The notes under the pieces are model-generated. The model saw only the letters and a list, made by a program, of their open reading frames with translations. It searched no databases and was not told the origin of the DNA. The translations under genes and the position numbers were made by a program. Positions 39,815-50,866 of a stretch of 64,000 nucleotides of DNA are shown piece by piece (within the stretch, counting starts at the first letter, position 1; each line of letters starts with the position of its first letter). The stretch spans positions 22,098-86,097 of the forward strand of contig CAWVXH010000001.1 of the NCBI GenBank assembly GCA_963934165.1, in the 5' to 3' direction. The stretch comes from an uncultured Candidatus Poseidoniales archaeon (GTDB lineage Archaea > Thermoplasmatota > Poseidoniia > Poseidoniales > Thalassarchaeaceae).

Positions 39815-41434
39815 ATGACTAACAAATCGAGACTGGCGAAAATTCTCAGAGCACCATTTGAGCCAACAGGCGGCGAGGGAAAATTATGGGTGATGTTCTT
39901 CACGTCACTGCTTTTAGTTTCAGGAATGAATTTCTATGCGATTATCCGTGAACCTGACATGATTGAAATAGAGGAAATTCAAAATTTCCCACGAGAAACT
40001 GTGAAAGTTGAAGGGGTTTTAACCAGTTATGTAAGAGACCCATATGGTGAACAGGCAAATCGAATAGATTTACAGATTGCCTCACATGATGGTAATTCTG
40101 TAATTAAAGTCAGATGGAATGTTGACCTGACAGTTACTGTTCCTCCGATTGGTAGCATCGTAACAATAGAAGGAGAAGTGTCTGAATGGAATGGAAGAAT
40201 TTGGTTACAATCCAATGGTTATGGTGCGATTACGGCGAAAGAGCAAGTGATTCAATTTAGAGGAGAGACTCTTGTGCATGTCGCTCAAAATCCTCCAAAA
40301 TATGCAAACCAATCCCTTGAAATTGAAGGATATCTAAGTGAAGCTTTATCGCCGAACATAACCTATCAATCTCTCAGCCTAATGGATAATCCAGCTTATG
40401 GAAATTCAGACCACCTCCTCTACATGCAAGTAGAAGGCCGTCTCGAACCAGAATTGGGCACTATCGAAGCTGGCAGTCATGTCATCGTTTCAGGATGGCT
40501 ACAATATGATGAGAGATCATTGAGATGGCGTCTGATTGCTCAGGCGACATCCGTTGAGGTTCTAAATTATGCAGACCCTGTGAAAATCAAGTGGGATGTA
40601 GAACCATATACACTAACTTATGATGTTGGAAAAATGGTCATTATCGATGGTACCGTATCATTTGATGGAACGAATTGGTGGTTACTCGGCCCGGCCCCTA
40701 CCGATAGATTGTGCCTTCTTGCCTCCCCTGAGGATGTTTCGAATAATATCGATGGAATTTCAGACGAATGGACAGGGCGACTTGTTTGGGCAACCGATGA
40801 AGCGGTAATTTGCCTTGATCGAGGCCAACAACCCGAATTCGGCAATCCTCATGGTCAAATTGGTGAAGATGCAATAAACATGCTTGATGTCGCTCAAAAT
40901 CCATTTGGTTTTGTAAATCAAAATCATACCTTTGAAGGATGGATTACAGATCCTATTTCACCAGATTATGATAAGGGCTATGTTGGCGATGGTCCTGATT
41001 ATTACTCACGAGATACTAAATTACGGATACAATTAATCGGCGAACACGTCGAATGGATCGAAGCGGGTCAATTAATTCGATTCAACGCGACAGTTATCTG
41101 GTCCGAATCAGAGGGCCGGGTTATCTTAGATGCTCGTTCATGGACCTTAGGTGACACTCCTGAACCCACCGCCTTGAATTGGGGGGACGGGTATGATTCA
41201 TGGCGTTGGGAAGTTGGAAAATTAGTCAGCATCACCGGCGAAGCAGTGATAGATGAGGATGGAAACCAATGGGTCAATCGTTCTGGTTCTATTGAACAAA
41301 TATGCTTACTTGGAGACGGAACAGAACCCAACCAACAGGCAAATGCAGGTGAGCCTTTGACTTGGATTGGCAGATTGATAATGTCAGAGGTACCACTTGC
41401 AAATACTATTTATTTCTGCTTAGATGTACGCTGA
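39815..41434 (+). CDS. Membrane-anchored extracellular protein built from internally duplicated OB-fold-like modules
   Basis: N-terminal anchor 'LWVMFFTSLLLVSGMNFYAII'. The repeated module pair can be seen by eye: 'YDVGKMVIIDGTVSFDGTNWWLLG..RLCLL..WTGRLVW..VICLD' versus 'WEVGKLVSITGEAVIDEDGNQWVN..QICLL..WIGRLIM..YFCLD'. Each is preceded by a 'VEG/IEG/FEG...V.GW' barrel-like unit. Confidence 0.55.
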   Translation: MTNKSRLAKILRAPFEPTGGEGKLWVMFFTSLLLVSGMNFYAIIREPDMIEIEEIQNFPRETVKVEGVLTSYVRDPYGEQANRIDLQIASHDGNSVIKVRWNVDLTVTVPPIGSIVTIEGEVSEWNGRIWLQSNGYGAITAKEQVIQFRGETLVHVAQNPPKYANQSLEIEGYLSEALSPNITYQSLSLMDNPAYGNSDHLLYMQVEGRLEPELGTIEAGSHVIVSGWLQYDERSLRWRLIAQATSVEVLNYADPVKIKWDVEPYTLTYDVGKMVIIDGTVSFDGTNWWLLGPAPTDRLCLLASPEDVSNNIDGISDEWTGRLVWATDEAVICLDRGQQPEFGNPHGQIGEDAINMLDVAQNPFGFVNQNHTFEGWITDPISPDYDKGYVGDGPDYYSRDTKLRIQLIGEHVEWIEAGQLIRFNATVIWSESEGRVILDARSWTLGDTPEPTALNWGDGYDSWRWEVGKLVSITGEAVIDEDGNQWVNRSGSIEQICLLGDGTEPNQQANAGEPLTWIGRLIMSEVPLANTIYFCLDVR

Positions 41435-41443
41435 GGTGATTTC

Positions 41444-43096
41444 ATGGACCCTTTTTTCGTAGACTTCGGATGGTTAATCGCCTCTTTCGTCATCGGAGTA
41501 TTCCTTGGCTGTTTAACTGGTTTAATTCCCGGTTTCCACGTGAATAACGTCGCATTGATTGCACTTTCATTATCCCCCATCGCAGTAGGTCTAGGAATTC
41601 CTCTCGATGCAGTCGCAGGAATAATTGTCGCAACTGGAACCGTTCATACTTTCCTGAATTATATCCCTAGTGCGCTGATCGGCGCGCCAGATGATAATAT
41701 GGCGTTAGCACTTTTACCAGGCCACAGAATGCTGGTTTCAGGCCAGGCAGCCCAGGGAGTTGCTTACTCAGCCCGAGGCTCTCAAATGGGCATGATGATG
41801 TCTATTCCATTGCTAATTGTTGCTCGTCTATTATTCGGTAAAGAGCCAGGATTGGGTTTGTATGAAGCAAGCCGTGAAGTCTTACCTTGGTTGCTTTTAT
41901 TCATTTCAATATTCTTAATCGCAACAGAGACGACTCGATTACCTTGGCCAGTTTGGGTACAAAAAATGACCAAAAATTTGAGATGGAAACTACCGAAAAA
42001 ATTCGAACTATCGGTCCCTTTGGGTAAAAGCAGGATCTATCGAAGTTGGGAATACCTCGATTTCACATTTGGCTCAAGTTCTAGAATGGCTGGAATTCTC
42101 GCCGCTACTGCCTTCTTTTGCTTGTCTGGATTTTACGGCTGGGCTGTATTCGAGTTACCGGGTAGATCACCTATTGGAATGCCTTCTGCAACCCTCTTGT
42201 TCCCGGGACTTGCAGGCCTTTTCGGAATCGCAAACCTCATCGATATCTATGTTACGACATCAGAGATTCCACCACAAGAACCGAATTGGGAGATGCCGAA
42301 GATGCGTCCGCTTGCAGTTCCAACATTTCTATCGGCTATCGTATCTTCAGTAATGGCAATATTACCTGGAATGACTGCTGCTCAAGCCACCGTCGTGGTA
42401 ATGAGTATGCGAAATTTCTGGGGTCGATTGACCGATCCCAATTATGTTCCAGCAGATTTTGAACATGGGACTCAGGACTTCCCGAAAATAAATTCTGGCT
42501 CAATTTACGAGGGATTAGACGATTTATCTGATGAAGAAGCTGCATTATTTTCTGCAGCACTTGAAGAAGCAGGGGGTACTTCAGAGGAAGATTTTGCAAG
42601 TAGGAGCCAGCAACAGGATTTGGAAATTATTGCAATTCTGTCCTCCGTTAATACAGCGGTAACAGTAATGGTTCTCGGATTTCTATACATGGTAGGAAGA
42701 CCACGTTCCGGAGCTGCCCTCGCTCTGAACATGATGTACCCAATCGACCTTTGGAACGGCATCAGTCCTCCATCTGATTTTATTCGTCTTCTCGGAATAA
42801 CGATAGGTGCTGGTTTATTTGCAGTTCCAGTAATGATTCGAGTTGGGAAAGGAATGTTACGAGTTCATGAAATGGTTCCATTGCGAACATTAGTTGGTGC
42901 AGTCACACTCCTCGTTACAGTACTGGTTTGGTTATCGACAGGTTGGATAGGAGTTGGAGTTCTAATGATCGGTACTCAACTCGGATTGATGCCACCCCGA
43001 ATTGGTATACGAAGAAGTCATGCGATGGGAATCATTCTCGTGCCGATAATGCTCTACACTTTTGCTCAAGAATTCGATGGCTTCGGATTTATTTGA
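41444..43096 (+). CDS. Polytopic membrane protein, possibly TctA/DUF112 (COG1784)-like transporter subunit
   Basis: More than 10 hydrophobic segments. The N-terminal 'GCLTGLIPGFHVNNVALIAL' resembles the G.PG motif of TctA-family proteins. There is an acidic cytoplasmic insert 'DLSDEEAALFSAALEEAGGTSEEDF'. The start lies 9 nt after the upstream stop. Confidence 0.4.
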   Translation: MDPFFVDFGWLIASFVIGVFLGCLTGLIPGFHVNNVALIALSLSPIAVGLGIPLDAVAGIIVATGTVHTFLNYIPSALIGAPDDNMALALLPGHRMLVSGQAAQGVAYSARGSQMGMMMSIPLLIVARLLFGKEPGLGLYEASREVLPWLLLFISIFLIATETTRLPWPVWVQKMTKNLRWKLPKKFELSVPLGKSRIYRSWEYLDFTFGSSSRMAGILAATAFFCLSGFYGWAVFELPGRSPIGMPSATLLFPGLAGLFGIANLIDIYVTTSEIPPQEPNWEMPKMRPLAVPTFLSAIVSSVMAILPGMTAAQATVVVMSMRNFWGRLTDPNYVPADFEHGTQDFPKINSGSIYEGLDDLSDEEAALFSAALEEAGGTSEEDFASRSQQQDLEIIAILSSVNTAVTVMVLGFLYMVGRPRSGAALALNMMYPIDLWNGISPPSDFIRLLGITIGAGLFAVPVMIRVGKGMLRVHEMVPLRTLVGAVTLLVTVLVWLSTGWIGVGVLMIGTQLGLMPPRIGIRRSHAMGIILVPIMLYTFAQEFDGFGFI

Positions 43097-43172: not shown

Positions 43173-45899
43173 GTGGATACCGTGAATGGAAATATGAATG
43201 GAAAAAATAAAATGATACCAGCAATTTTTGTCGTTGTTGGAATGTTACTGATGATTGTCAATGCGGTGATTTTGACATCGATTGTTGATGGAATAGTCGC
43301 GGATACTGTCGCGGGAGCAATCGCAGATGCTCGCGATAACCTTGAAGATTGGGAAGGTGACGATAGTTGGATGAATTCAACAGATGAGAGAGCATATTAT
43401 GCATATAATCTTGCCAATATTGATGCAATCAATTCCGGCGAAACAGATGCGCCTGAATTTGAATTGATTGGCCCTGCAATCTACACAGTTACAACCCATC
43501 GGGAAGTTCTTGCTTTTGATGAAGATGCTGGAGAAATGACATATTCAGAATACGATGTATTCGAATGGTGTGAAATTTGTACTCACGATGGAAAGATATC
43601 GGTATCAGGAGAAACTGAACTCACCAATGTCAATATCCTATATAACACTCAGAAAGTCGCTGGCCTATCAACTGGGATTACGTATGGTGAAATTTTCGCA
43701 AAAGCTGGGTTTTCCAACGCGATGATAGCTAACGATTTACAAAACCGTGCACCAAGCATTTGGTCGGCTGCTGAAATCAATATGATGGTGGATGGAGTAG
43801 CAGCACAACTGGTGCAAGCAGGATATGACGAAGCCACGGCTTCAGCAATGGCTCCGGTCGCATACCTTAACGCAGCTTATGCAAATTGGAATGCTTCAGC
43901 AGGAGGAGCGAGTCCTATGGATCCAGATTTCACTGAAGTTGCAAATTATATTCTCTATGATGCAGTAGACCCTTCAACTGGTGATTGTATCGCATTAACA
44001 TGTGAAATCGGACCAATGTTAGCTGCTGGAATCGGTGAGCCGGCTGACGAAACTACTGCAGTCCGTGCAGCACTTTACGGATATTCAGACCGTCTCGACA
44101 CCACCCTCATCGACTGGACTGTTTACGCATTGGCTGGAATAACTTTCCAATCTAATGGAGGAGGTGCAGATTTAGAAAGTGCAGAAAATCTTCGTGAAAG
44201 ATTACGAACTGCAACCGACCCTAATTTAAATCAGGACTCAAATAATAATGGAATTCCATACGATGATGGAATGGATATTACAAATCCAGACACCTTGAAT
44301 TATTTATTATTCGGAATCAATGAAGATACTGGATTAGGAGCTGGCTTATTGACTGAGACTGATTTCAATGGCATTCCACTACACGGTGTCGCACTTCTAT
44401 TATTGGGAGCACAAAGTGATGCATTCGGAACGATGTTAGAATACAACATCAATCTTGCTCAAGTACTCGCACTTGCCGATTATGCTGGAGGATGGATTGG
44501 CATGGTTGGAACAATGACTGAATTTGAAGCGATTTTAATCGGTGGGCAAGGCACGATCAATGCTGACCTTTGGTGGCAACTTTCATTCGGTTCAGTCGAA
44601 CCTCTTGAGGGAGGATACCTATCTATTGGATTGAATAGAGCAGATCATGCAGGAGATGCTGACTTAACAATTGAAAAGGTTAGAGAAATTCTCTATGATG
44701 GCCCATTTGCACTGACCGGTAATTTTGCTATTACTTTCATGTATAGTGAATTATCTGGAAAGACACTACCAACCGGGGCAGATGGAATTCCGGTGAGTGG
44801 TGGAGAGCAGATCGATTGGACTGATGAATTAGTTGCAGGTATGTATGGAATCGATACCGAAGCAGCAGCAGCACTTCGATCATGGGTGAAGGATTTAATG
44901 TTCGATCAAGTAATCGGGGCATTGTTAGGTTTCCAATATGGAACATCACCTTATACAACTCAATCACTCAATAACTGGCTCTATGGTTGGAGAGATATCG
45001 CAGTTGCAGATACGCTTGGCGATATCAACGACATGAATCTCGGTTGGGTTAGTTTGGAAACAAACATGACCTACTATGGATCAGATGGTGTTAGCACAGG
45101 AGATTATTCAGTTTACAAGATGAGCACGGGAAGCGGTCCAGACGGTCTCGCTAGTGTCGAGCATAGAATTGCTGAAGGATACATCAGTGGAGAAACTGGC
45201 GAAATTTATGACATGAGTGAATATTTGCCTTGGAGGTCTCCGGCTGCTGAAGAAGAAAAATATGGGTTATTGACTGATCATGTAGGTAATGCAAATACAA
45301 TCCTCAATGGAACCATAGGTGGCATTGGAGATGCTGATGAATCATTCAAAGTAAATTTAGTTGGTTATGCTATAGCGGACAGTATCGTTGGAGACAATGT
45401 GGTCTACAAGGGAATCCCCATGGTAGAGCATACGGTAAATCTCGACCCTTCGACGCACCAAATTCAAGCAAAATTACTCGCAACAGGAACAATCCTTGAT
45501 GTAGTGCCGGGTGGATTACCAATTTACTTCGGCTCGACAGTTGACCTGAAAGTAGAACCGGTTACCAATGTAGTCATGTATGGAAAATCTGTTTCACGAT
45601 TCTACCTTGACCTGAGAGGAGCCGGGTCAATGAATCCAGACTTTGGCTCTGACTCATCAGATGTTCAACCGGTTTTTGAAATCCATACCTTTAGCGAAAT
45701 TAGTGATGAAGATGCGGCTTCCTTCAAAGAAGCCGTTAACGACAATATGGGTCTAACTTACTGGACCAATTTCGACTCTGGCGCAGATGCAAAGTATATC
45801 GATTATGTAGCGGCTTCAATCTATATTATCAGTATAGTAATGATGGCGTTCGGTTCCAGGAAATTTATGGAATCTCATTCTAACAATAAAGAGGAATAA
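43173..45899 (+). CDS. 908-aa ectodomain protein with N- and C-terminal TM anchors; both ends resemble the CD36/LIMP-2/SR-B family
   Basis: TM helices 'IPAIFVVVGMLLMIVNAVILTSIV' and 'YVAASIYIISIVMMAF'. 'YYAYNLANIDAINSGETDAPEFELIGPAIYTV..VLAFDEDAGEMTYSEYDVFEW' parallels the CD36-family N-terminal consensus (F.F.V.NP.EV..GE.P...E.GPY.Y...V.F...N.TVSY). C-terminal 'YKGIPMVEH', 'GLPIYFGS' and 'VDLKVEPVTNVVMYGKSVSRFYLDL' parallel 'LKGIPVYRF', 'PV[FY][IL]S.PHF' and 'LDIEP.TG..L...KRLQ.NL'. GTG start; ATGs 21 and 39 nt downstream are possible. Confidence 0.5.
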   Translation: MDTVNGNMNGKNKMIPAIFVVVGMLLMIVNAVILTSIVDGIVADTVAGAIADARDNLEDWEGDDSWMNSTDERAYYAYNLANIDAINSGETDAPEFELIGPAIYTVTTHREVLAFDEDAGEMTYSEYDVFEWCEICTHDGKISVSGETELTNVNILYNTQKVAGLSTGITYGEIFAKAGFSNAMIANDLQNRAPSIWSAAEINMMVDGVAAQLVQAGYDEATASAMAPVAYLNAAYANWNASAGGASPMDPDFTEVANYILYDAVDPSTGDCIALTCEIGPMLAAGIGEPADETTAVRAALYGYSDRLDTTLIDWTVYALAGITFQSNGGGADLESAENLRERLRTATDPNLNQDSNNNGIPYDDGMDITNPDTLNYLLFGINEDTGLGAGLLTETDFNGIPLHGVALLLLGAQSDAFGTMLEYNINLAQVLALADYAGGWIGMVGTMTEFEAILIGGQGTINADLWWQLSFGSVEPLEGGYLSIGLNRADHAGDADLTIEKVREILYDGPFALTGNFAITFMYSELSGKTLPTGADGIPVSGGEQIDWTDELVAGMYGIDTEAAAALRSWVKDLMFDQVIGALLGFQYGTSPYTTQSLNNWLYGWRDIAVADTLGDINDMNLGWVSLETNMTYYGSDGVSTGDYSVYKMSTGSGPDGLASVEHRIAEGYISGETGEIYDMSEYLPWRSPAAEEEKYGLLTDHVGNANTILNGTIGGIGDADESFKVNLVGYAIADSIVGDNVVYKGIPMVEHTVNLDPSTHQIQAKLLATGTILDVVPGGLPIYFGSTVDLKVEPVTNVVMYGKSVSRFYLDLRGAGSMNPDFGSDSSDVQPVFEIHTFSEISDEDAASFKEAVNDNMGLTYWTNFDSGADAKYIDYVAASIYIISIVMMAFGSRKFMESHSNNKEE

Positions 45900-45972: not shown

Positions 45973-48522
45973 GTGATGCAGATGTGTCGAAAACGGGTTT
46001 TGGCTGGTCTGATTTGTGGTATTCTTATTTTTATGTCGATGAGCCCCTTGAGCGAGATTCAACTTGAAAAACAGACTCAGACAATCAATACATCCGATAG
46101 TGATGAACAAGTTGTGAAATTCACCCGAATTATGCCTTCAGCAGTACCCGAACGAGAAAATGATTGGTTTGAAATTACTAATTTTGGAAGTGAAGATGTC
46201 GAACTAGGGGATTGGACAATTGAGAGGATTCAATCCTCGAGTCCATGGATTTCAAATTTCAACGAATTTACTCTCATATCTGGCCAATCATTAGTTCTTA
46301 CAGAAAATCCAACGAATCTTCTAGAAGATGGTGGAATTGTTGCCCAAGATGGAAATATCGTTCTCAATAACATGCCTTGGTTGATAGATTCCGGTAGCGC
46401 ACTTCAGCTGAAAAATCCAGATGGAATCGTTGCTGATTCGATTGTTTTCGGGGGAGGCATTACAGAAACCGAAGGCTGGTCTGGGCCAGCAATATCCGTT
46501 CCAGGAGATGGCTCACCCGGCTTAATTCTGATTAGAGGAGATGGGTGCACTAGTGGTACCGATTCAGATAGTTCAGCGGACTGGGAAGAGCGGTGGATCA
46601 GAATCGGCGCATCGATTTTTTGTGATGGTGGCGATATTGCTGCACATCCAAATATGGCTGCATCAGCTTCAATTAGTCCAGGTACAGCACTTTCAGAACT
46701 ACTCGGTTGGCTAGAAAGTGCTGAACAATCAATTCACCTTAGTATCTACGAATCGATGAGTCCGGACCTGACAAATGCACTTTTAGAAGCGATTGAAAGA
46801 GGAGTTGAAGTGACCATTTTGTTGGAAGAAGGAATTTTGGATGATTCTGAAACAAAAGAAAATCAACGTGGACACGCACAAATATTGAGCCAATCTGGCG
46901 CTATTGTATATTGGATGATAACACCATCAGAAATCAGCGCACCATATGCGTTTATTCACAGCAAAGTAGCAGTAAAAGATAGTGAAAGCATTTGGATTTC
47001 TTCGGGGAATTGGAAAGATTCTAGTTTGCCTCCTGTTGGAGCATCAGGCAATAGAGAATGGTCATTATTCCTCGATTCCGAGCCAATGGCTCAATTAATA
47101 TTGTCTAGAATGGCATGGGATGAAAACTCGAATCACCTTCATATCGTAGAACATTCGTCTCAATATTCACCTGACGCTGGATGGTCACTCCCCTCTCCAA
47201 CAATCACTCCTGCGATCACTCCAACCCCAGATACTACCACTAGTTTTCGAACGAAATTATTGACCTGTCCCGACGACTGTGTAGACGGCCTCATCTCTGA
47301 GATAAATTCCGCTGATGAGTCAATTCGTATATCGGTTCAATATCTCGACATGGATTGGTATTGGGGATTTGGAGCCGAGAATCCAATACTTACTGCTCTA
47401 CATGATGCCGCTGTTCGCGGAGTCGAAGTTCGCATTCTTCTGAACGCGTATTATGCTGATGAGAGCGAAGATATTCACGATGCTGTAAATTTGTTCAATA
47501 CCGATTGGAATCAATCTCAAGGATTAGATATCACTGCCAGATTAATGTCGACAGCGGCTGATATTTGGAAATTACACAATAAAGGCATGCTTGTCGACGA
47601 TGATACAGTATTGGTTGGAAGCATGAATTGGGGTTCAAGTTCAATGTTGCGAAACCGCGAGATGAGTATCGTCGCGGAATCTTCAGAATTGGCTGCAATA
47701 TTTAGTAACTCATTCGAAATTGATTGGAATCGATTAGATGATTCAACAGATTCTGATGGTGATTTACTACCAGACTCATGGGAACTAATGTACGGCTTAG
47801 ACCGGCATAGTGCTGCGGTAATTGGCACGGCATTGAGCGAGCAATCATTGGACCCTGACAATGATGGATTGAATAATTTACAAGAATTTCAATTGGGGGG
47901 TGATCCGAGTGATGCTGATACAGATGGAGATTGTATTCTAGATGGAGAAGAGATTGAATTTGCTCAGAGCTTGTTACGAGCACCTTCAGTTGCAATGAAT
48001 TCGGCGGATGTCGATGAAAATGGAATACCTGATGGCGAGCAATATGGCTGTTCTGAAAATCCTGCCATCAATAATTCAGATAATGGAGATGATGGTAATG
48101 GAACCGAACCAAAAGAGCAGGATGAAGAGGAAGCCTTCGTCAATATTAGGGAAGATCCACTCTCTCAACCAGGAGCGAAGGTCTTACTCTACCTAATGAT
48201 GATTTCTGGGGCTTCTGTCGCAGTTGCTGCTGCGTCTATGTTTTATTCACCGAAAAGGCGAACAGAAGATGTCCTTTTCGATGATTCCGGTTACAAATTT
48301 GAAGACCCCTCATCATCGAAAGCGATTCTTAGTGGTACTAGTTTCGATGATGAACGAGAAGATGTACGCTCGCGTAAACAAGGAAAGGATGACGGGACGC
48401 ACGGAAAAATAAATCTCGATGGCTTTGGTTTTGAAAATGCAACTCGGGACGAGGTTCAATTCCTTTTAGACCAAGGTCATTCAATTGATGAGGTTCACAA
48501 AATTCTCGGAGATAATGAGTGA
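45973..48522 (+). CDS. Secreted, membrane-anchored phospholipase-D-superfamily protein (two HKD motifs) with N-terminal lamin-tail-like domain and thrombospondin-type-3-like repeats
   Basis: Signal 'VLAGLICGILIFMSMSPL'. LTD-like 'VKFTRIMPSAVPERENDWFEITNFGSEDVELGDWTIE'. HKD-1 is 'FIHSKVAVKDSESIWISSGNW' and HKD-2 is 'LHNKGMLVDDDTVLVGSMNWG'. Repeat motifs 'DSDGDLLPDSWELMYGLD', 'DPDNDGLNNLQEF' and 'DADTDGDCILDGEE'. TM helix 'VLLYLMMISGASVAVAAASMFY' plus a roughly 90-aa tail. Confidence 0.75.
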   Translation: MMQMCRKRVLAGLICGILIFMSMSPLSEIQLEKQTQTINTSDSDEQVVKFTRIMPSAVPERENDWFEITNFGSEDVELGDWTIERIQSSSPWISNFNEFTLISGQSLVLTENPTNLLEDGGIVAQDGNIVLNNMPWLIDSGSALQLKNPDGIVADSIVFGGGITETEGWSGPAISVPGDGSPGLILIRGDGCTSGTDSDSSADWEERWIRIGASIFCDGGDIAAHPNMAASASISPGTALSELLGWLESAEQSIHLSIYESMSPDLTNALLEAIERGVEVTILLEEGILDDSETKENQRGHAQILSQSGAIVYWMITPSEISAPYAFIHSKVAVKDSESIWISSGNWKDSSLPPVGASGNREWSLFLDSEPMAQLILSRMAWDENSNHLHIVEHSSQYSPDAGWSLPSPTITPAITPTPDTTTSFRTKLLTCPDDCVDGLISEINSADESIRISVQYLDMDWYWGFGAENPILTALHDAAVRGVEVRILLNAYYADESEDIHDAVNLFNTDWNQSQGLDITARLMSTAADIWKLHNKGMLVDDDTVLVGSMNWGSSSMLRNREMSIVAESSELAAIFSNSFEIDWNRLDDSTDSDGDLLPDSWELMYGLDRHSAAVIGTALSEQSLDPDNDGLNNLQEFQLGGDPSDADTDGDCILDGEEIEFAQSLLRAPSVAMNSADVDENGIPDGEQYGCSENPAINNSDNGDDGNGTEPKEQDEEEAFVNIREDPLSQPGAKVLLYLMMISGASVAVAAASMFYSPKRRTEDVLFDDSGYKFEDPSSSKAILSGTSFDDEREDVRSRKQGKDDGTHGKINLDGFGFENATRDEVQFLLDQGHSIDEVHKILGDNE

Positions 48523-49796
48523 TGGGTTCAATTTCTGAGTTCATTGACGAAGTTGTTTCGGACAAACTCGAAGATGAAGTCGTAATCGAATGGTTAAAGA
48601 AAATTTTTGCAGATGGACTCAACGAAGCTCAGACTATCGAATTAACAAAATCGATGCGTGATTCTGGAGAAAAGTTGGAATGGCCAGCTGAATGGGCAAA
48701 TCTTGTCGTCGACAAACATTCAACAGGTGGAGTTGGAGATAATGTTTCGATTCCACTCGCTCCTGCCCTCGCGGCTTGTGGACTCAAAGTCCCCATGATT
48801 TCTGGGCGAGGATTGGGTCATACTGGGGGAACTCTGGATAAATTGGAGAGCATCCCTGAATTCAGAGTCGATTTGTCGGTCGCGGAACTCAGTGAACAAA
48901 TCGAAAAAATCGGTGTAGCAATGGTCGGCCAGACCAATGATTTAGTGCCCGCCGATCGACGATTATACGCCCTGCGAGATGTAACAGGAACAATAGCTTC
49001 GGTTCCACTAATCACATCTTCAATCATATCAAAAAAGGCAGCTGAAGGCTTAACTGCTCTAGTTCTCGATGTAAAATTTGGGCGTGCTGCCTTCATGGTC
49101 GAGCGTGCTGAAGCTGCAAAACTCGCTCGCTCAATGAGCGCAGTCGCTAATGCACTGGGGATTCAAACAACTTCGATATTGTCTGATATGAATTCACCTT
49201 TAGGCTGCGCTGTAGGAAATGCTCTGGAAATTGTCGAATCAGTAGAAACACTATGTGGGAGAGGTCCGCTTGATTTGGAAGAATTAGTTTGTGTCCAAGG
49301 TGGGATTTTATTGTATTTGGCTGGAATTGCAACAGATGAAAATCATGGAGCTGTGATGATTCATGACAGCCTCAACGACGGCAGTGCTTTCAATAAATTC
49401 CTAGAAATGGTTGAATATCAAGGTGGAAACGCCGATGATTTCCTCACAGATACTACATTATACACTGCCTTAGGGTTATTAGATTCAAACCTGAATACAA
49501 CAGAAATAATTGCTGAGATTTCAGGGAACATTTGTGATATCGATGCGATGATAATTGCAGATATTTGTTTAAATCTAGGTAGCGGAAGGAATTCATTAGG
49601 GGGCGAAATCGATCATCGTGTTGGGATAATTCTCGAGAAGCAAATCGGCGAATTAATAGAAATTGGAGACCATTGGGCAACGATATACCATTCCGACGAA
49701 CTTGATGAGGAAAAAATTAAATCAATTCAATCATCTCTCCGAACAACTAATGATAACGTCGAGGTCGAATCACGAATCGTGGAGATGATAAGATGA
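48522..49796 (+). CDS. deoA: Thymidine / pyrimidine-nucleoside phosphorylase
   Basis: 'VDKHSTGGVGDNVS' and 'SGRGLGHTGGTLDKLESIPEF' are hallmark motifs. About 424 aa, so the bacterial-size enzyme rather than the longer archaeal AMP phosphorylase. The ATG overlaps the upstream TGA (TGATG); a GTG at 48519 is also possible. Confidence 0.88.
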   Translation: MGSISEFIDEVVSDKLEDEVVIEWLKKIFADGLNEAQTIELTKSMRDSGEKLEWPAEWANLVVDKHSTGGVGDNVSIPLAPALAACGLKVPMISGRGLGHTGGTLDKLESIPEFRVDLSVAELSEQIEKIGVAMVGQTNDLVPADRRLYALRDVTGTIASVPLITSSIISKKAAEGLTALVLDVKFGRAAFMVERAEAAKLARSMSAVANALGIQTTSILSDMNSPLGCAVGNALEIVESVETLCGRGPLDLEELVCVQGGILLYLAGIATDENHGAVMIHDSLNDGSAFNKFLEMVEYQGGNADDFLTDTTLYTALGLLDSNLNTTEIIAEISGNICDIDAMIIADICLNLGSGRNSLGGEIDHRVGIILEKQIGELIEIGDHWATIYHSDELDEEKIKSIQSSLRTTNDNVEVESRIVEMIR

Positions 49797-50866
49797 GATT
49801 GCTCTATATTGACAGGATTCGAGCTATAGCAATTCTTGCGATGGTTCAGGTCCATACCGCGGCCATTGTACCTCCTGAAGGAATTACCGTAGGAGACCCC
49901 ATTGCATTGGTTTCAGCTGCAATCGGAGGAATGGCGGCTCCATTATTTGTAACAATTTCAGGTTGGGGAATTTATAGAAGTGCGATATCTAGGGATACCA
50001 AATCGAATGATGATTTTAGAGCTTGGTCAAAATGGATTTTACCACGAATTACAATGTTGATTTTCTGCCAATTTTTAGTCAATTTTTTACTATCAACCGA
50101 TCGAGGAGGGCGTTTTGAATCATTTACTCCAGGAGTTCTAACATTACTGGCAATCGCTACGATAATCGCGCCAATAATAATCCATTTTTCTCATCAAACT
50201 CGCATTGTGCTATTGATTGTCCTTGCTGGCTCTCAATACTTCCTCGGAGATTTGGCTGGCACTGATTGGACCTGGTTTGAGCGTGTTTCCCAAGATAGCT
50301 TTACAGAATGGATTGAGCGTCTTCTATGGAATGGAACATATCCAGCACTACCATGGTTGGCTTACATTATGCTCGGCTCAATAATTTTCGAATTGGAGGG
50401 TGAGCCAAATACTAGAGACAAAATGATGTATGGCGGACTTGTAATCACTACAGCAACTCTGATTTATTCATTTACTTCAAATCAAATGTGGGCACTTCCA
50501 GAAGGAGAAGCAGTCCTAACGTTCTTCCCTGCCTCGACTACTTTCATCTTTGTTTCAGGTACTTTTGTTCTGATGACATTCAGGATATTAGAAGGTAGAG
50601 AAATCCAAGGAGGCCCCCCAACTGGTGGTCAAAAATTGGCAATTTTTGAACCGGCTGGGCGACTCTCGTTGACAATTTATGTCGCCCATTTCGCTGTACT
50701 CGGAATAGTTGCTAACATGATGTATGGTCAAGCTAGGCTCGATGTAATTCCTGCCTTCGCAGTAACCCTAATCCATACGGCGATTTGGATTCCACTATCG
50801 ATTTTACACGAACGTTTAATTTCAGATTATTCACTCGAAAAATTATTGCAGAAACTCAACTCGTAG
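49793..50866 (+). CDS. Polytopic membrane protein, acyltransferase-3 / DUF1624 (heparan-alpha-glucosaminide N-acetyltransferase-like) candidate
   Basis: The 'RLLYIDRIRAIAILAMVQVH' N-terminus is typical of this family (R..sLD.fRG.a...M...H). About 9-10 TM helices. ATGA overlap with the deoA stop. Confidence 0.4.
   Translation: MRLLYIDRIRAIAILAMVQVHTAAIVPPEGITVGDPIALVSAAIGGMAAPLFVTISGWGIYRSAISRDTKSNDDFRAWSKWILPRITMLIFCQFLVNFLLSTDRGGRFESFTPGVLTLLAIATIIAPIIIHFSHQTRIVLLIVLAGSQYFLGDLAGTDWTWFERVSQDSFTEWIERLLWNGTYPALPWLAYIMLGSIIFELEGEPNTRDKMMYGGLVITTATLIYSFTSNQMWALPEGEAVLTFFPASTTFIFVSGTFVLMTFRILEGREIQGGPPTGGQKLAIFEPAGRLSLTIYVAHFAVLGIVANMMYGQARLDVIPAFAVTLIHTAIWIPLSILHERLISDYSLEKLLQKLNS

What the first reader, a model, noticed from the sequence alone, without database searches (positions are those of the whole stretch)
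45973..50866. Secreted double-HKD PLD-family enzyme translationally coupled to thymidine phosphorylase and a polytopic acyltransferase-like protein
**Seen in the sequence**
- Three plus-strand genes have overlapping stop/start codons: TGATG at 48520-48524 and ATGA at 49793-49796.
- The first gene encodes a signal peptide, a lamin-tail-like domain, two complete HKD motifs (HSKVAVKD...SSGNW and HNKGMLVDD...GSMNW), thrombospondin-type-3-like repeats and a C-terminal anchor.

**Established knowledge**
The PLD superfamily includes both phospholipases / cardiolipin synthases and Nuc-type endonucleases. LTD domains are frequently attached to extracellular nucleases and phosphatases.

**Inference**
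There are two competing readings.
- Extracellular DNA salvage: a surface nuclease feeds nucleosides to the coupled DeoA.
- Phospholipid scavenging together with the upstream CD36-like protein.

Either way, the tight coupling of an envelope hydrolase to a cytoplasmic nucleoside phosphorylase is unusual.
Basis: partly seen in the sequence, partly recalled or inferred. Interest (0 to 1): 0.6.

Follow-up and report, generated by a model that had tools for sequence, protein, structure and literature searches.

The report
Archaeal surface nuclease and DNA-salvage module
A marine planktonic archaeon (Marine Group II) keeps a surface-anchored nuclease-type enzyme, a thymidine-splitting enzyme, a DNA-binding-type surface protein and a membrane permease as one unit that relatives keep or lose together. 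This suggests, without any experimental test, that these abundant archaea harvest dissolved DNA.

Summary
The stop/start overlaps TGATG (48520-48524) and ATGA (49793-49796) are real. The 849-aa protein has a signal peptide, one lamin-tail domain (LTD), two intact HKD motifs, Ca-type DxDxDG repeats, a C-terminal anchor and a 92-aa cytoplasmic tail.

- Among 46 Poseidoniales genomes, four genes are all present (26) or all absent (20): the OB-fold membrane protein (39815-41434), the TctA-like permease (41444-43096), the LTD/HKD enzyme and the thymidine/pyrimidine-nucleoside phosphorylase.
- There were at least two independent losses.
- In five examined module-less genomes the CD36-like gene and the acyltransferase stay in place, so neither belongs to the unit.

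Evidence on function:
- The HKD profile is closest to the nucleases Nuc, Zucchini and NucT, not to cardiolipin synthases.
- Orthologues in three genera carry a PhoX phosphatase domain.
- The OB protein folds like tandem-OB DNA binders.
- An adjacent OB plus TctA-like pair is essential for DNA uptake in Methanococcus maripaludis (PMC10133366).

The best reading is capture, cleavage, import and catabolism of extracellular nucleic acid (about 0.6). No activity has been tested.

This scan had already noted the same module on other genomes. I found no paper describing it.

The parts
39815..41434 (+). Membrane-anchored OB-fold array (539 aa): one N-terminal TM helix (residues 26-44) and an outward-facing ectodomain made of repeated beta-barrels. 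Part 1 of the module.
   Evidence: - TM helix.
- AlphaFold model has pLDDT 77.
- The listed top 50 fold matches are nearly all OB-fold nucleic-acid binders, mostly tandem OB arrays: HIN-200/p204, RPA, Teb1, POT1, SSB, CST.
- Remote profile relatives carry PF01336 OB folds, LTD and DUF5689.
- It is present in exactly the same genomes as the other three module genes.
41444..43096 (+). TctA-like polytopic permease (550 aa, about 10-11 hydrophobic helices), starting 9 nt after the OB gene. Part 2 of the module.
   Evidence: - Pfam TctA scores 148.7 bits (cut-off 28.9). Hydrophobic segments.
- Same phyletic pattern as the other module genes.
- The OB gene lies directly upstream in 78 of 78 species loci that have room.
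- The same holds in 11 of 16 informative loci of other Thermoplasmatota families.
43173..45899 (+). CD36-like surface protein (908 aa, TM helices at both ends). It sits inside the module but is not part of it.
   Evidence: - Pfam CD36 E = 1.8e-9 on residues 22-189.
- Only G009 and G021 gave BLAST matches among the 14 fetched relatives' loci; G015's contig ends at the HKD gene, so it is uninformative.
- It is retained at the same site in the five examined genomes that lost all four module genes.
- It comes first downstream of TctA in 56 of 76 MGIIb-type loci.
45973..48522 (+). Surface-tethered LTD plus double-HKD enzyme (849 aa). Part 3 of the module and the gene the finding is about.
   Evidence: -.
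- Orthologues occur in 24 of 40 relatives. Most are about 1,640 aa with six LTDs.
45973..46059 (+). Signal-peptide-type N-terminus (residues 1-29).
   Evidence: - Basic MCRKR followed by a hydrophobic stretch at 8-29.
- The model is disordered over residues 1-44.
46105..46449 (+). Lamin-tail domain (residues 45-159).
   Evidence: - Pfam LTD scores 43.5 bits (cut-off 34.3).
- The model shows a beta-sandwich with pLDDT 83-94.
46657..47727 (+). Catalytic module of two PLDc_2 halves (residues 229-383 and 426-585). HKD motif 1 lies at 46957-47013 and HKD motif 2 at 47575-47631.
   Evidence: - Pfam PLDc_2 E = 3.8e-41.
- H, K, D and N of both motifs are invariant.
- The model has pLDDT above 90 for most of this region.
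- The profile is closest to Nuc, Zucchini/MitoPLD and NucT.
- The fold is closest to compact double-HKD enzymes, including the PLD3/PLD4 exonucleases.
47743..48108 (+). Acidic stalk with DxDx[DN]G calcium-type (TSP3-like) motifs (residues 591-712).
   Evidence: - Motifs at residues 627, 647 and 679.
- Only weak NCBIfam hits to TSP3-type proteins. No Pfam hit.
48172..48519 (+). C-terminal TM anchor (residues 734-757) and 92-aa cytoplasmic tail. The tail ends in a conserved mini-domain, LDGxxF...VQxxLxxG.
   Evidence: - TM helix.
- The tail motif is conserved in the family consensus.
- The model shows a hairpin plus two helices.
- The tail is unique in the genome and has no Pfam family.
48519..49796 (+). 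Cytoplasmic thymidine/pyrimidine-nucleoside phosphorylase (425 aa). Part 4 of the module.
   Evidence: - TIGR02644 scores 439.6 bits (cut-off 409) and NF004490 scores 433.9 bits (cut-off 269).
- Best solved relative is human thymidine phosphorylase, E = 3.5e-89. DKHSTGGVGD, RDV and SKK are conserved in the alignment.
- Same phyletic pattern as the other module genes.
49793..50866 (+). Acyl_transf_3/HGSNAT-like polytopic membrane protein (357 aa). It overlaps the phosphorylase stop by 4 nt but is not part of the module.
   Evidence: - Pfam Acyl_transf_3 scores 59.2 bits.
- It is present in 35 of 41 relatives, including 12 of the 16 module-less ones.
- It is adjacent to the phosphorylase only in genera g1, g2 and g5.
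- In module-less genomes it sits about 85 bp after the CD36-like gene.

Best explanation
The HKD gene belongs to a four-gene module of Poseidoniales (Marine Group II archaea). The module most likely harvests extracellular nucleic acid.

Proposed steps (all inferred; nothing has been assayed):
1. The membrane-anchored array of OB folds binds DNA or RNA at the cell surface.
2. The surface-tethered LTD/double-HKD enzyme, a Nuc-type phosphodiesterase, cuts the nucleic acid. In some genera the same polypeptide carries a PhoX phosphatase.
3. The TctA-like permease imports the product. Whether this is strands, oligonucleotides or nucleotides is open.
4. In the cytoplasm a nucleotidase frees nucleosides (SurE is present), and the thymidine/pyrimidine-nucleoside phosphorylase splits them into base plus (deoxy)ribose-1-phosphate.

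What is shown:
- the domain content of each protein;
- the intact catalytic motifs;
- the outward topology of the HKD enzyme;
- conserved adjacency of the four genes;
- strict co-presence or co-absence of the four genes.

The CD36-like gene and the acyltransferase are neighbours with separate roles.
For: **(1) The four genes form a unit**
- The OB protein, TctA-like permease, HKD enzyme and phosphorylase are found in the same 25 of 41 genomes and missing from the same 16.
- A prediction test held. Four further genomes were chosen only because they lack the HKD gene. They also lack the other three genes, while control genome G199 has all four in order.
- A tree of four flanking proteins requires at least two independent losses.
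- In the five examined module-less genomes the site reads upstream gene, CD36-like, acyltransferase, M60, SHMT. Two separate segments on either side of a retained gene were therefore lost together.

**(2) Nuclease type**
- The family profile matches solved structures in this order: Nuc 2e-20, MitoPLD/Zucchini 1e-18, Serratia 7e0m 2e-18, NucT 2e-14, PLD3 1e-10, Streptomyces PLD about 1e-7, PLD1/2 about 1e-5. PMC8004604 itself describes 7e0m as nuclease-like.
- NCBIfam and PADLOC best hits are DrmC and NucT.
- The fold is compact like the PLD3/PLD4 5' exonucleases, with TM-score 0.66 on the target.

**(3) Domain fusion**
- Orthologues in six species genomes of three genera carry a PhoX phosphomonoesterase domain.
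- One such gene is followed by the same phosphorylase, acyltransferase, M60 and SHMT genes.

**(4) The OB protein**
- It models as tandem OB folds whose matches are DNA binders.
- Its remote relatives are secreted multi-OB, LTD-bearing proteins.

**(5) Literature**
- In M. maripaludis an adjacent single-TM OB-fold protein and a TctA-like protein are each essential for natural transformation. A secreted nuclease was also hit in that screen (PMC10133366).
- LTD plus OB plus nuclease architectures are known extracellular nucleases: ExeM (PMC6085458) and the Izemoplasma DNA-degradation loci (PMC8289736).

**(6) The OB and TctA pair is old**
- The OB gene lies directly upstream of the TctA-like gene in 11 of 16 informative loci of other Thermoplasmatota families.

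**(7) Neighbour in MGIIa**
- In MGIIa a 2OG oxygenase lies between the HKD gene and the phosphorylase. Its best characterised solved relative is thymine dioxygenase, E = 2.4e-32.
Against: - No enzyme activity, binding or transport has been measured for any member.
- HKD similarity to nucleases is below every curated family cut-off. The fold search does not separate nucleases from lipid PLDs.
- LTD is not specific to nucleases. The only other LTD protein in this genome is an LTD-amidohydrolase.
- Distant HKD homologues outside the order lie near lipid genes: geranylgeranyl reductase and CDP-alcohol phosphatidyltransferase. They are never near the phosphorylase, TctA or OB genes.
- In this genome (83% complete) I found no surface phosphatase (PhoX or 5'-nucleotidase) and no thymidine kinase.
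- Deoxyribose-phosphate aldolase does not track the module. It is present in module-less MGIIb genomes and was not found in MGIIa genomes that have the module.
- The M. maripaludis proteins could not be compared directly with the window proteins.
- OB folds can also bind sugars.
Confidence: 0.6

Rival explanations
1. The module is a natural-transformation (genetic DNA uptake) machine, as in Methanococcus. The OB protein and the TctA-like protein import DNA strands for recombination, and the HKD enzyme prepares them. The phosphorylase only clears by-products or is a bystander.
For: - The OB plus TctA-like pair is essential for transformation in M. maripaludis, and the TctA-like protein is also essential in M. 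thermophilus (PMC10133366).
- The pair is widespread in Thermoplasmatota without the HKD gene or the phosphorylase.
Against: - The phosphorylase shares the strict presence/absence pattern of the other three genes and their repeated joint loss. That is hard to explain for a bystander.
- PhoX fusions point to release of phosphate and nucleosides.
- I did not look for pilus or recombination partners.
- This rival overlaps the best explanation. The two differ mainly in the fate of the imported DNA.
Confidence: 0.15
2. The HKD enzyme is a true phospholipase D or general phosphodiesterase. It strips head groups or phosphate from lipids or other phosphodiesters of particles and prey membranes. Its link to the phosphorylase reflects phosphate economy rather than DNA.
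For: - It belongs to the PLD superfamily, and its fold matches lipid PLDs almost as well as nucleases.
- A PhoX fusion also fits plain phosphate scavenging.
- Distant homologues lie near lipid-synthesis genes.
- The CD36-like neighbour belongs to a lipid-receptor family.
Against: - The profile ranks lipid PLDs 13 to 15 orders of magnitude behind Nuc-type nucleases.
- Cardiolipin-synthase models score 31 bits or less against cut-offs of 281 bits or more.
- The compact fold fits lipid PLDs less completely: target TM-score 0.43-0.54 against about 0.66 for PLD3/PLD4.
- The CD36-like gene is independent of the module.
- This reading does not explain the OB array or the nucleoside phosphorylase.
Confidence: 0.15
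3. There is no functional link. The genes are neighbours by descent in a compact genome, and the overlaps are ordinary operon packing.
For: - Four-base overlaps are common.
- The acyltransferase overlap turned out to be incidental.
- In MGIIa the phosphorylase sits next to purE and guaA-like genes. This identification rests on my reading of their N-terminal sequences and was not tested.
Against: - The phyletic match is perfect in 46 genomes.
- Two non-contiguous segments were lost together at least twice.
- Adjacency is kept across three families at 38-45% protein identity.
Confidence: 0.05

Closest known systems
Nuc (Salmonella/IncN plasmid, PDB 1BYR), NucT (Helicobacter, 6EHI) and Zucchini/MitoPLD (4GGJ): HKD nucleases of the PLDc_2 type
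   Same: - The HxKx4D...(G/S)SxN catalytic motif is shared.
- They are the best profile matches among solved structures.
- A serine-type position follows the first HKD motif, as in the nucleases (criterion from PMC8004604; motif seen).
   Different: - Those enzymes have one HKD per chain and act as dimers of about 150-200 aa.
- Here two HKD halves sit in one chain, fused to an LTD, a Ca-type stalk, a membrane anchor and a cytoplasmic tail.
- Scores are below the NucT and DrmC family cut-offs.
- The substrate is untested.
PLD3/PLD4 lysosomal 5'-3' ssDNA exonucleases (PDB 8V07, 8Q1X, 8V08)
   Same: - They are single-chain, compact double-HKD enzymes of about 400 residues.
- They are membrane-anchored with the catalytic domain facing away from the cytoplasm.
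- They are among the top fold matches, with TM-score 0.64-0.68 on the target.
   Different: - They are eukaryotic type II membrane proteins.
- Sequence identity is only 16-19%.
- They have no LTD, OB partner or permease.
M. maripaludis MMJJ_13020 (single-TM OB-fold protein) plus MMJJ_13030 (TctA-like), required for natural transformation (PMC10133366)
   Same: - The two-gene architecture and order are the same: a membrane-anchored OB-fold protein directly followed by a TctA-family protein.
- No TctB or TctC gene lies adjacent in the window. I did not search the genome for them.
- A secreted nuclease is also implicated in that system.
   Different: - The window's OB protein is a long multi-OB array of 539 aa.
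- In Poseidoniales the pair is joined to a tethered HKD nuclease-type enzyme and a nucleoside phosphorylase.
- I could not test direct sequence relatedness to the Methanococcus proteins.
ExeM/NucH-type extracellular nucleases (Shewanella, PMC6085458) and the 'DNA-degradation loci' of Ca. Izemoplasmatales (PMC8289736)
   Same: - Envelope-associated proteins combine an LTD, OB-type nucleic-acid-binding regions and a nuclease.
- Nucleases are co-localised with transporters and catabolic genes.
   Different: - Their catalytic domain is EEP or SNase type, not HKD.
- They are bacterial.
- In them the OB region is part of the same polypeptide.
- No TctA-like permease is involved.
Bacterial and human thymidine phosphorylase and pyrimidine-nucleoside phosphorylase (DeoA/Pdp; PDB 2WK5, 1BRW)
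   Same: - The protein matches along nearly its full length, and the active-site stretches are conserved.
   Different: - It lacks about 17 N-terminal residues of the family profile. This is a shared trait of most MGIIb versions.
- It is encoded in a surface-enzyme module rather than a deo operon.

Membership tests
PLD superfamily (HKD enzymes), Pfam PLDc_2 | Two HxKx4D motifs, each with a downstream (G/S)SxN, and a score above the Pfam cut-off | tested here: met
   - PLDc_2 scores 140.5 bits (cut-off 27) in two stretches.
- H329, K331, D336, N346 and H535, K537, D542, N552 are invariant in 39 sequences.
Nuc/NucT/DrmC-type HKD nucleases | Score above the curated family cut-off | tested here: not met
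   - DrmC scores 74.2 bits (cut-off 133). NucT models score 27-48 bits (cut-offs 211-351).
- They are nevertheless the best-scoring families, and Nuc is the top solved relative of the profile.
Nuc/NucT/DrmC-type HKD nucleases | Hydrolysis of DNA or RNA phosphodiester bonds | not testable with these tools
   This needs an assay of the purified ectodomain.
Cardiolipin synthase / phosphatidyltransferase branch of the PLD superfamily | Score above the curated cut-off of the Cls or ClsB models | tested here: not met
   - TIGR04265 scores 30.6 bits (cut-off 290).
- ClsB scores 22 bits (cut-off 281).
- PRK12452 scores 21 bits (cut-off 787).
Lamin-tail domain (PF00932) | Score above the Pfam cut-off and a beta-sandwich fold | tested here: met
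   - LTD scores 43.5 bits (cut-off 34.3) on residues 45-159.
- The model shows confident beta strands there.
- Lamin tail structures appear among weak profile hits.
Thymidine/pyrimidine-nucleoside phosphorylase | Score above the curated cut-off, and conserved phosphate- and nucleoside-binding stretches | tested here: met
   - TIGR02644 scores 439.6 bits (cut-off 409.05) and NF004490 scores 433.9 bits (cut-off 269).
- The narrower equivalog TIGR02643 is not reached (374 bits, cut-off 570.7), so thymidine-only specificity is not implied.
- DKHSTGGVGD, RDV and SKK align with human thymidine phosphorylase.
TctA family (TTT transporters, PF01970) | Score above the Pfam cut-off | tested here: met
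   TctA scores 148.7 bits (cut-off 28.9).
TctA family (TTT transporters, PF01970) | Works with TctB and a TctC binding protein (the bacterial tripartite system) | not tested
   - No such genes are adjacent in the window. I did not search the genome for them.
- PMC10133366 states that archaea lack clear TctB and TctC homologues.
Archaeal OB/TctA DNA-uptake pair (M. maripaludis MMJJ_13020/13030) | A single-TM OB-fold protein gene directly upstream of a TctA-like gene | tested here: met
   - The gap is 9 nt, with one TM helix at residues 26-44.
- The fold matches OB arrays.
- The pair is kept in 78 of 78 species loci with room and in 11 of 16 informative loci of other families.
Archaeal OB/TctA DNA-uptake pair (M. 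maripaludis MMJJ_13020/13030) | Sequence relatedness to the Methanococcus proteins, and a requirement for DNA uptake | not testable with these tools
The genome-contig scan kept only Poseidoniales loci.
- The OB Pfam hit of the window protein alone is below cut-off (E = 0.0078).
ExeM/NucH extracellular nucleases | An EEP (endonuclease/exonuclease/phosphatase) catalytic domain together with LTD and OB regions | tested here: not met
   No EEP domain was found in any module protein. The LTD and OB parts are present but on separate proteins.
Acyl_transf_3 / HGSNAT-like membrane acyltransferases (third gene) | Score above the Pfam cut-off | tested here: met
   Acyl_transf_3 scores 59.2 bits (cut-off 31) and HGSNAT_cat scores 46.5 bits (cut-off 22).

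The most novel reading that the evidence does not exclude
The OB-array/TctA-like pair is the long-sought archaeal importer for DNA strands or oligonucleotides. On this reading the tethered double-HKD enzyme is its dedicated processing nuclease, a three-protein analogue of the bacterial ComEA/ComEC/EndA system. The most abundant planktonic archaea would use it mainly to feed on dissolved DNA. That would make Poseidoniales a significant sink for oceanic extracellular DNA and its phosphorus.
Probability: 0.3. Interest if true: 0.8.

Novelty: new variant of a known kind. Interest (0 to 1): 0.6.

Why it matters
**Ecology**
- Poseidoniales are among the most abundant archaea of the surface ocean and remain uncultured. 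Their known diet is proteins and lipids.
- A conserved, repeatedly lost module for taking up dissolved nucleic acid would add a trait that separates lineages within one genus (3 of 18 genomes of this genus, counting the window's own, keep it). It would also bear on marine phosphorus and DNA turnover.

**Archaeal DNA transport**
- Methanococcus genetics points to an OB protein plus a TctA-like protein as the archaeal DNA transporter.
- Here the same pair is hard-wired to a nuclease-type enzyme and a nucleoside-splitting enzyme. This gives independent comparative support and a testable parts list.

**This window**
- It corrects the apparent three-gene operon. Neither the acyltransferase nor the CD36-like gene belongs to the unit.

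Tried and rejected
2. A direct comparison with M. maripaludis MMJJ_13020/13030 was not possible. The one genome-contig scan returned only Poseidoniales loci. The two short OB proteins I could place in context, from methanogen-related MAGs, have no TctA neighbour. One sits next to an adenine deaminase.
3. A downstream deoxyribose route gave no support. The deoC pattern does not follow the module. I found no thymidine kinase, PhoX, 5'-nucleotidase or thymine-dioxygenase-like gene in this 83%-complete genome. SurE, a PNP/UDP-type phosphorylase and a DeoC-like gene are present.
4. The fold search did not discriminate. Nucleases and lipid PLDs all match at E = 1e-16 to 1e-19.
5. I considered that the about 1,640-aa proteins of relatives are a fusion of the CD36-like and HKD proteins, and rejected it. 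Their extra N-terminal half is five more LTDs.
6. An anti-phage DrmC-like role was rejected because the enzyme is extracellular and anchored.
7. The cytoplasmic tail has no Pfam family and no second copy in the genome.
8. Literature searches combining Poseidoniales or Marine Group II with thymidine phosphorylase, lamin tail, phospholipase D, nuclease or extracellular DNA found nothing on this module.

Full report
**Observation**

The three + strand ORFs are 45973-48522 (849 aa), 48519-49796 (425 aa) and 49793-50866 (357 aa). The junction sequences TGATG (48520-48524) and ATGA (49793-49796) are present.

The 849-aa protein is built as follows:
- Its N-terminus has signal-peptide character: MCRKR followed by a hydrophobic stretch at residues 8-29.
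- It has one lamin-tail domain (LTD) at residues 45-159, scoring 43.5 bits against a cut-off of 34.3. It has two PLDc_2 halves (E = 3.8e-41).
- An acidic stalk carries three strict DxDx[DN]G motifs.
- A TM helix lies at 734-757, followed by KRR and a 92-residue tail.

The catalytic H, K, D and N of both motifs are invariant in 39 homologues. An AlphaFold model is confident (pLDDT 80.8, pTM 0.74) outside the signal peptide, linker and tail.

The second gene reaches the curated cut-off for pyrimidine-nucleoside phosphorylase (TIGR02644, 439.6 bits against 409). It aligns with human thymidine phosphorylase at E = 3.5e-89, with the active-site stretches kept. The third gene is an Acyl_transf_3/HGSNAT-like membrane protein.

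Names on near-identical database proteins place the organism in Ca. Thalassarchaeaceae (Poseidoniales, Marine Group IIb).

**The real unit**

I searched 40 related genomes with each protein.
- The HKD protein, the phosphorylase, the upstream TctA-like protein (41444-43096) and the upstream OB-like membrane protein (39815-41434) are found in exactly the same 25 genomes, counting the window's own. They are missing from the same 16.
- The 16 genomes without them comprise 15 of the 17 searched genomes of the window's own genus and one of a sister genus.
- Where present, the genes lie in one row: OB, TctA-like, HKD enzyme, then the phosphorylase. In MGIIa a BaxI-like gene and a 2OG-oxygenase gene come before the phosphorylase. 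One MGIIb genus has only the oxygenase there.

As a prediction test I took four further Thalassarchaeaceae genomes (89-94% complete). I chose them only because a wider search found no HKD gene in them. They also lack the phosphorylase, the TctA-like gene and the OB gene. Control genome G199 has all four in order.

In five module-less genomes the locus is otherwise syntenic: upstream gene, CD36-like gene, acyltransferase, M60 peptidase, SHMT. The OB/TctA segment and the HKD/phosphorylase segment, which flank the retained CD36-like gene, are therefore both gone. The acyltransferase then follows the CD36-like gene after about 85 bp.

A tree of the four flanking proteins groups G021 (module present) with the module-less members of the genus at support 0.965. 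It places G023 (module-less) apart, so at least two independent losses occurred.

The acyltransferase is present in 35 of 41 genomes, whether or not they have the module. It is adjacent to the phosphorylase only in three genera. The CD36-like gene is missing from 10 of the 14 fetched module loci. In 76 MGIIb-type species loci it sits between the TctA-like and HKD genes in 56, while the HKD gene follows TctA directly in 20.

I conclude that there is a four-gene module and that the CD36-like gene and the acyltransferase are independent neighbours. Four-base overlaps as such are ordinary: 3 of 16 same-strand pairs in the window have one.

**What the HKD enzyme is like**

- In most Poseidoniales the orthologue is about 1,640 aa with six LTDs before the two HKD halves. 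The window's lineage has a shortened form with one LTD.
- NCBIfam and PADLOC rank the nuclease-type families DrmC and NucT first. Cardiolipin synthases score far lower, and all are below cut-off.
- A profile of the family against all solved-structure sequences gives this order:

| Solved relative | E-value |
|---|---|
| Nuc | 2e-20 |
| MitoPLD/Zucchini | 1e-18 |
| Serratia 7e0m | 2e-18 |
| NucT | 2e-14 |
| PLD3 | 1e-10 |
| Streptomyces PLD | about 1e-7 |
| PLD1/2 | about 1e-5 |

- The authors of the 7e0m structure point out its nuclease-like loops and leave its substrate open (PMC8004604).
- The fold search puts 7e0m and the PLD3/PLD4 ssDNA exonucleases on top (target TM-score about 0.66). Lipid PLDs follow closely, so the fold alone does not decide.
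- In six species genomes of three MGIIb genera the orthologue carries a PhoX phosphomonoesterase domain between LTDs. In one such contig it is followed by the same phosphorylase, acyltransferase, M60 and SHMT genes. A diesterase and a monoesterase on one surface polypeptide fit the conversion of nucleic acid to nucleosides plus phosphate.

**The partners**

The OB-like protein has one N-terminal TM helix and models as a chain of beta-barrels (pLDDT 77). Its listed top 50 fold matches are nearly all OB-fold nucleic-acid binders, mostly tandem arrays: HIN-200/p204 on dsDNA, RPA, Teb1, POT1, SSB and CST.

A profile search of 1.84 billion proteins found full-length relatives in only about nine clusters. 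It also found remote relatives of two kinds:
- secreted bacterial multi-OB proteins with PF01336, DUF5689, LTD or T9SS tails;
- short proteins of about 220 aa with a single TM helix and OB folds.

Such short OB genes lie directly upstream of TctA-like genes, on the same strand, in 11 of 16 informative loci from other Thermoplasmatota families. The OB/TctA pair is therefore older than the module. The HKD homologues of those other families are not near OB, TctA or phosphorylase genes.

**Link to published genetics**

- In M. maripaludis JJ the adjacent genes MMJJ_13020 (single-TM OB-fold protein) and MMJJ_13030 (TctA-like, 11 TM helices) are each essential for natural transformation.
- The TctA-like homologue is also essential in Methanoculleus thermophilus.
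- A secreted thermonuclease was hit in the same screen.
- The authors propose the TctA-like protein as the missing archaeal DNA transporter.

The window's pair has the same architecture. I could not compare the sequences directly.

LTD plus OB plus nuclease architectures are established for extracellular nucleases: ExeM (PMC6085458) and the Izemoplasma DNA-degradation loci (PMC8289736).

**Weak points**

- Nothing has been assayed.
- LTD also occurs on a surface amidohydrolase in this genome.
- Distant HKD homologues lie near lipid genes.
- This 83%-complete genome shows no surface phosphatase and no thymidine kinase, although SurE is present.
- Deoxyribose-phosphate aldolase does not follow the module, so the fate of the sugar phosphate is open.

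**Novelty**

- Searches of the paper library found no description of this module in Poseidoniales.
- This scan had already noted it several times on other genomes.
- New here:
  - the strict co-loss test, with two independent losses on either side of a retained gene;
  - the exclusion of the acyltransferase and the CD36-like gene from the unit;
  - the shortened one-LTD form;
  - evidence that the OB/TctA pair predates the module;
  - a rhomboid partner of the HKD homologues outside the order.

**Verdict**

I rate this a new variant of a known kind (extracellular nucleic-acid harvesting and uptake loci), of moderate to high interest, resting on comparative evidence only.

Noticed in passing
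L049:9071-10051, L051:2205-3125, L052:10858-11700, L055:11118-12083: In other Thermoplasmatota families the LTD/double-HKD homologue is directly followed, on the same strand, by a rhomboid intramembrane protease gene. This holds in 4 of 5 loci checked. A possible reading is that the rhomboid cuts the C-terminal anchor and releases the enzyme.
   Followed up: partly
L013:8374-9339 (-) and L013:9336-10112 (-); also L020:10937-11953: In MGIIa a 2OG-Fe(II) oxygenase and a BaxI_1 membrane protein lie between the HKD gene and the phosphorylase. The oxygenase's best characterised solved relative is fungal thymine dioxygenase (5C3P, E = 2.4e-32). This hints at further thymine processing. I found no copy in the window's genome.
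   Followed up: partly
L046:4366-6999 (G000 contig C27): The only other LTD protein of this genome is an 877-aa fusion of LTD and amidohydrolase. In these archaea the LTD therefore acts as a general module of surface hydrolases and is not a nuclease marker.
   Followed up: partly
window 48244-48519: The cytoplasmic tail of the HKD enzyme ends in a conserved mini-domain, LDGxxF...VQxxLxxG, modelled as a hairpin plus two helices. It is kept across the order. It has no Pfam family and no second copy in the genome. Its partner or role is unknown.
   Followed up: partly
L014:5465-10404 (G026, a single-contig genome): The HKD gene appears split into two overlapping frames of 553 aa and 1,123 aa within the LTD region. 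This could be a frameshift, a sequencing error or a broken gene.
   Followed up: no
window 43173-45899: The CD36-like gene sits between the TctA-like and HKD genes in 56 of 76 MGIIb-type species loci, yet it survives loss of the whole module.
   Followed up: partly
window 50856-50866: The acyltransferase and the convergent M60-like peptidase gene overlap tail to tail by 11 nt.
   Followed up: no
L057:2721-5173: In a Ca. Methanospirareceae MAG, a short single-TM OB protein related to the window's OB protein lies next to an adenine deaminase gene and not next to a TctA-like gene.
   Followed up: no
window 41444-43096 and relatives (L016:3735-5903, L020:4093-5979): The TctA-like protein carries a cytoplasmic loop of very variable length, so the whole protein ranges from 500 to 722 aa across genera.
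   Followed up: no
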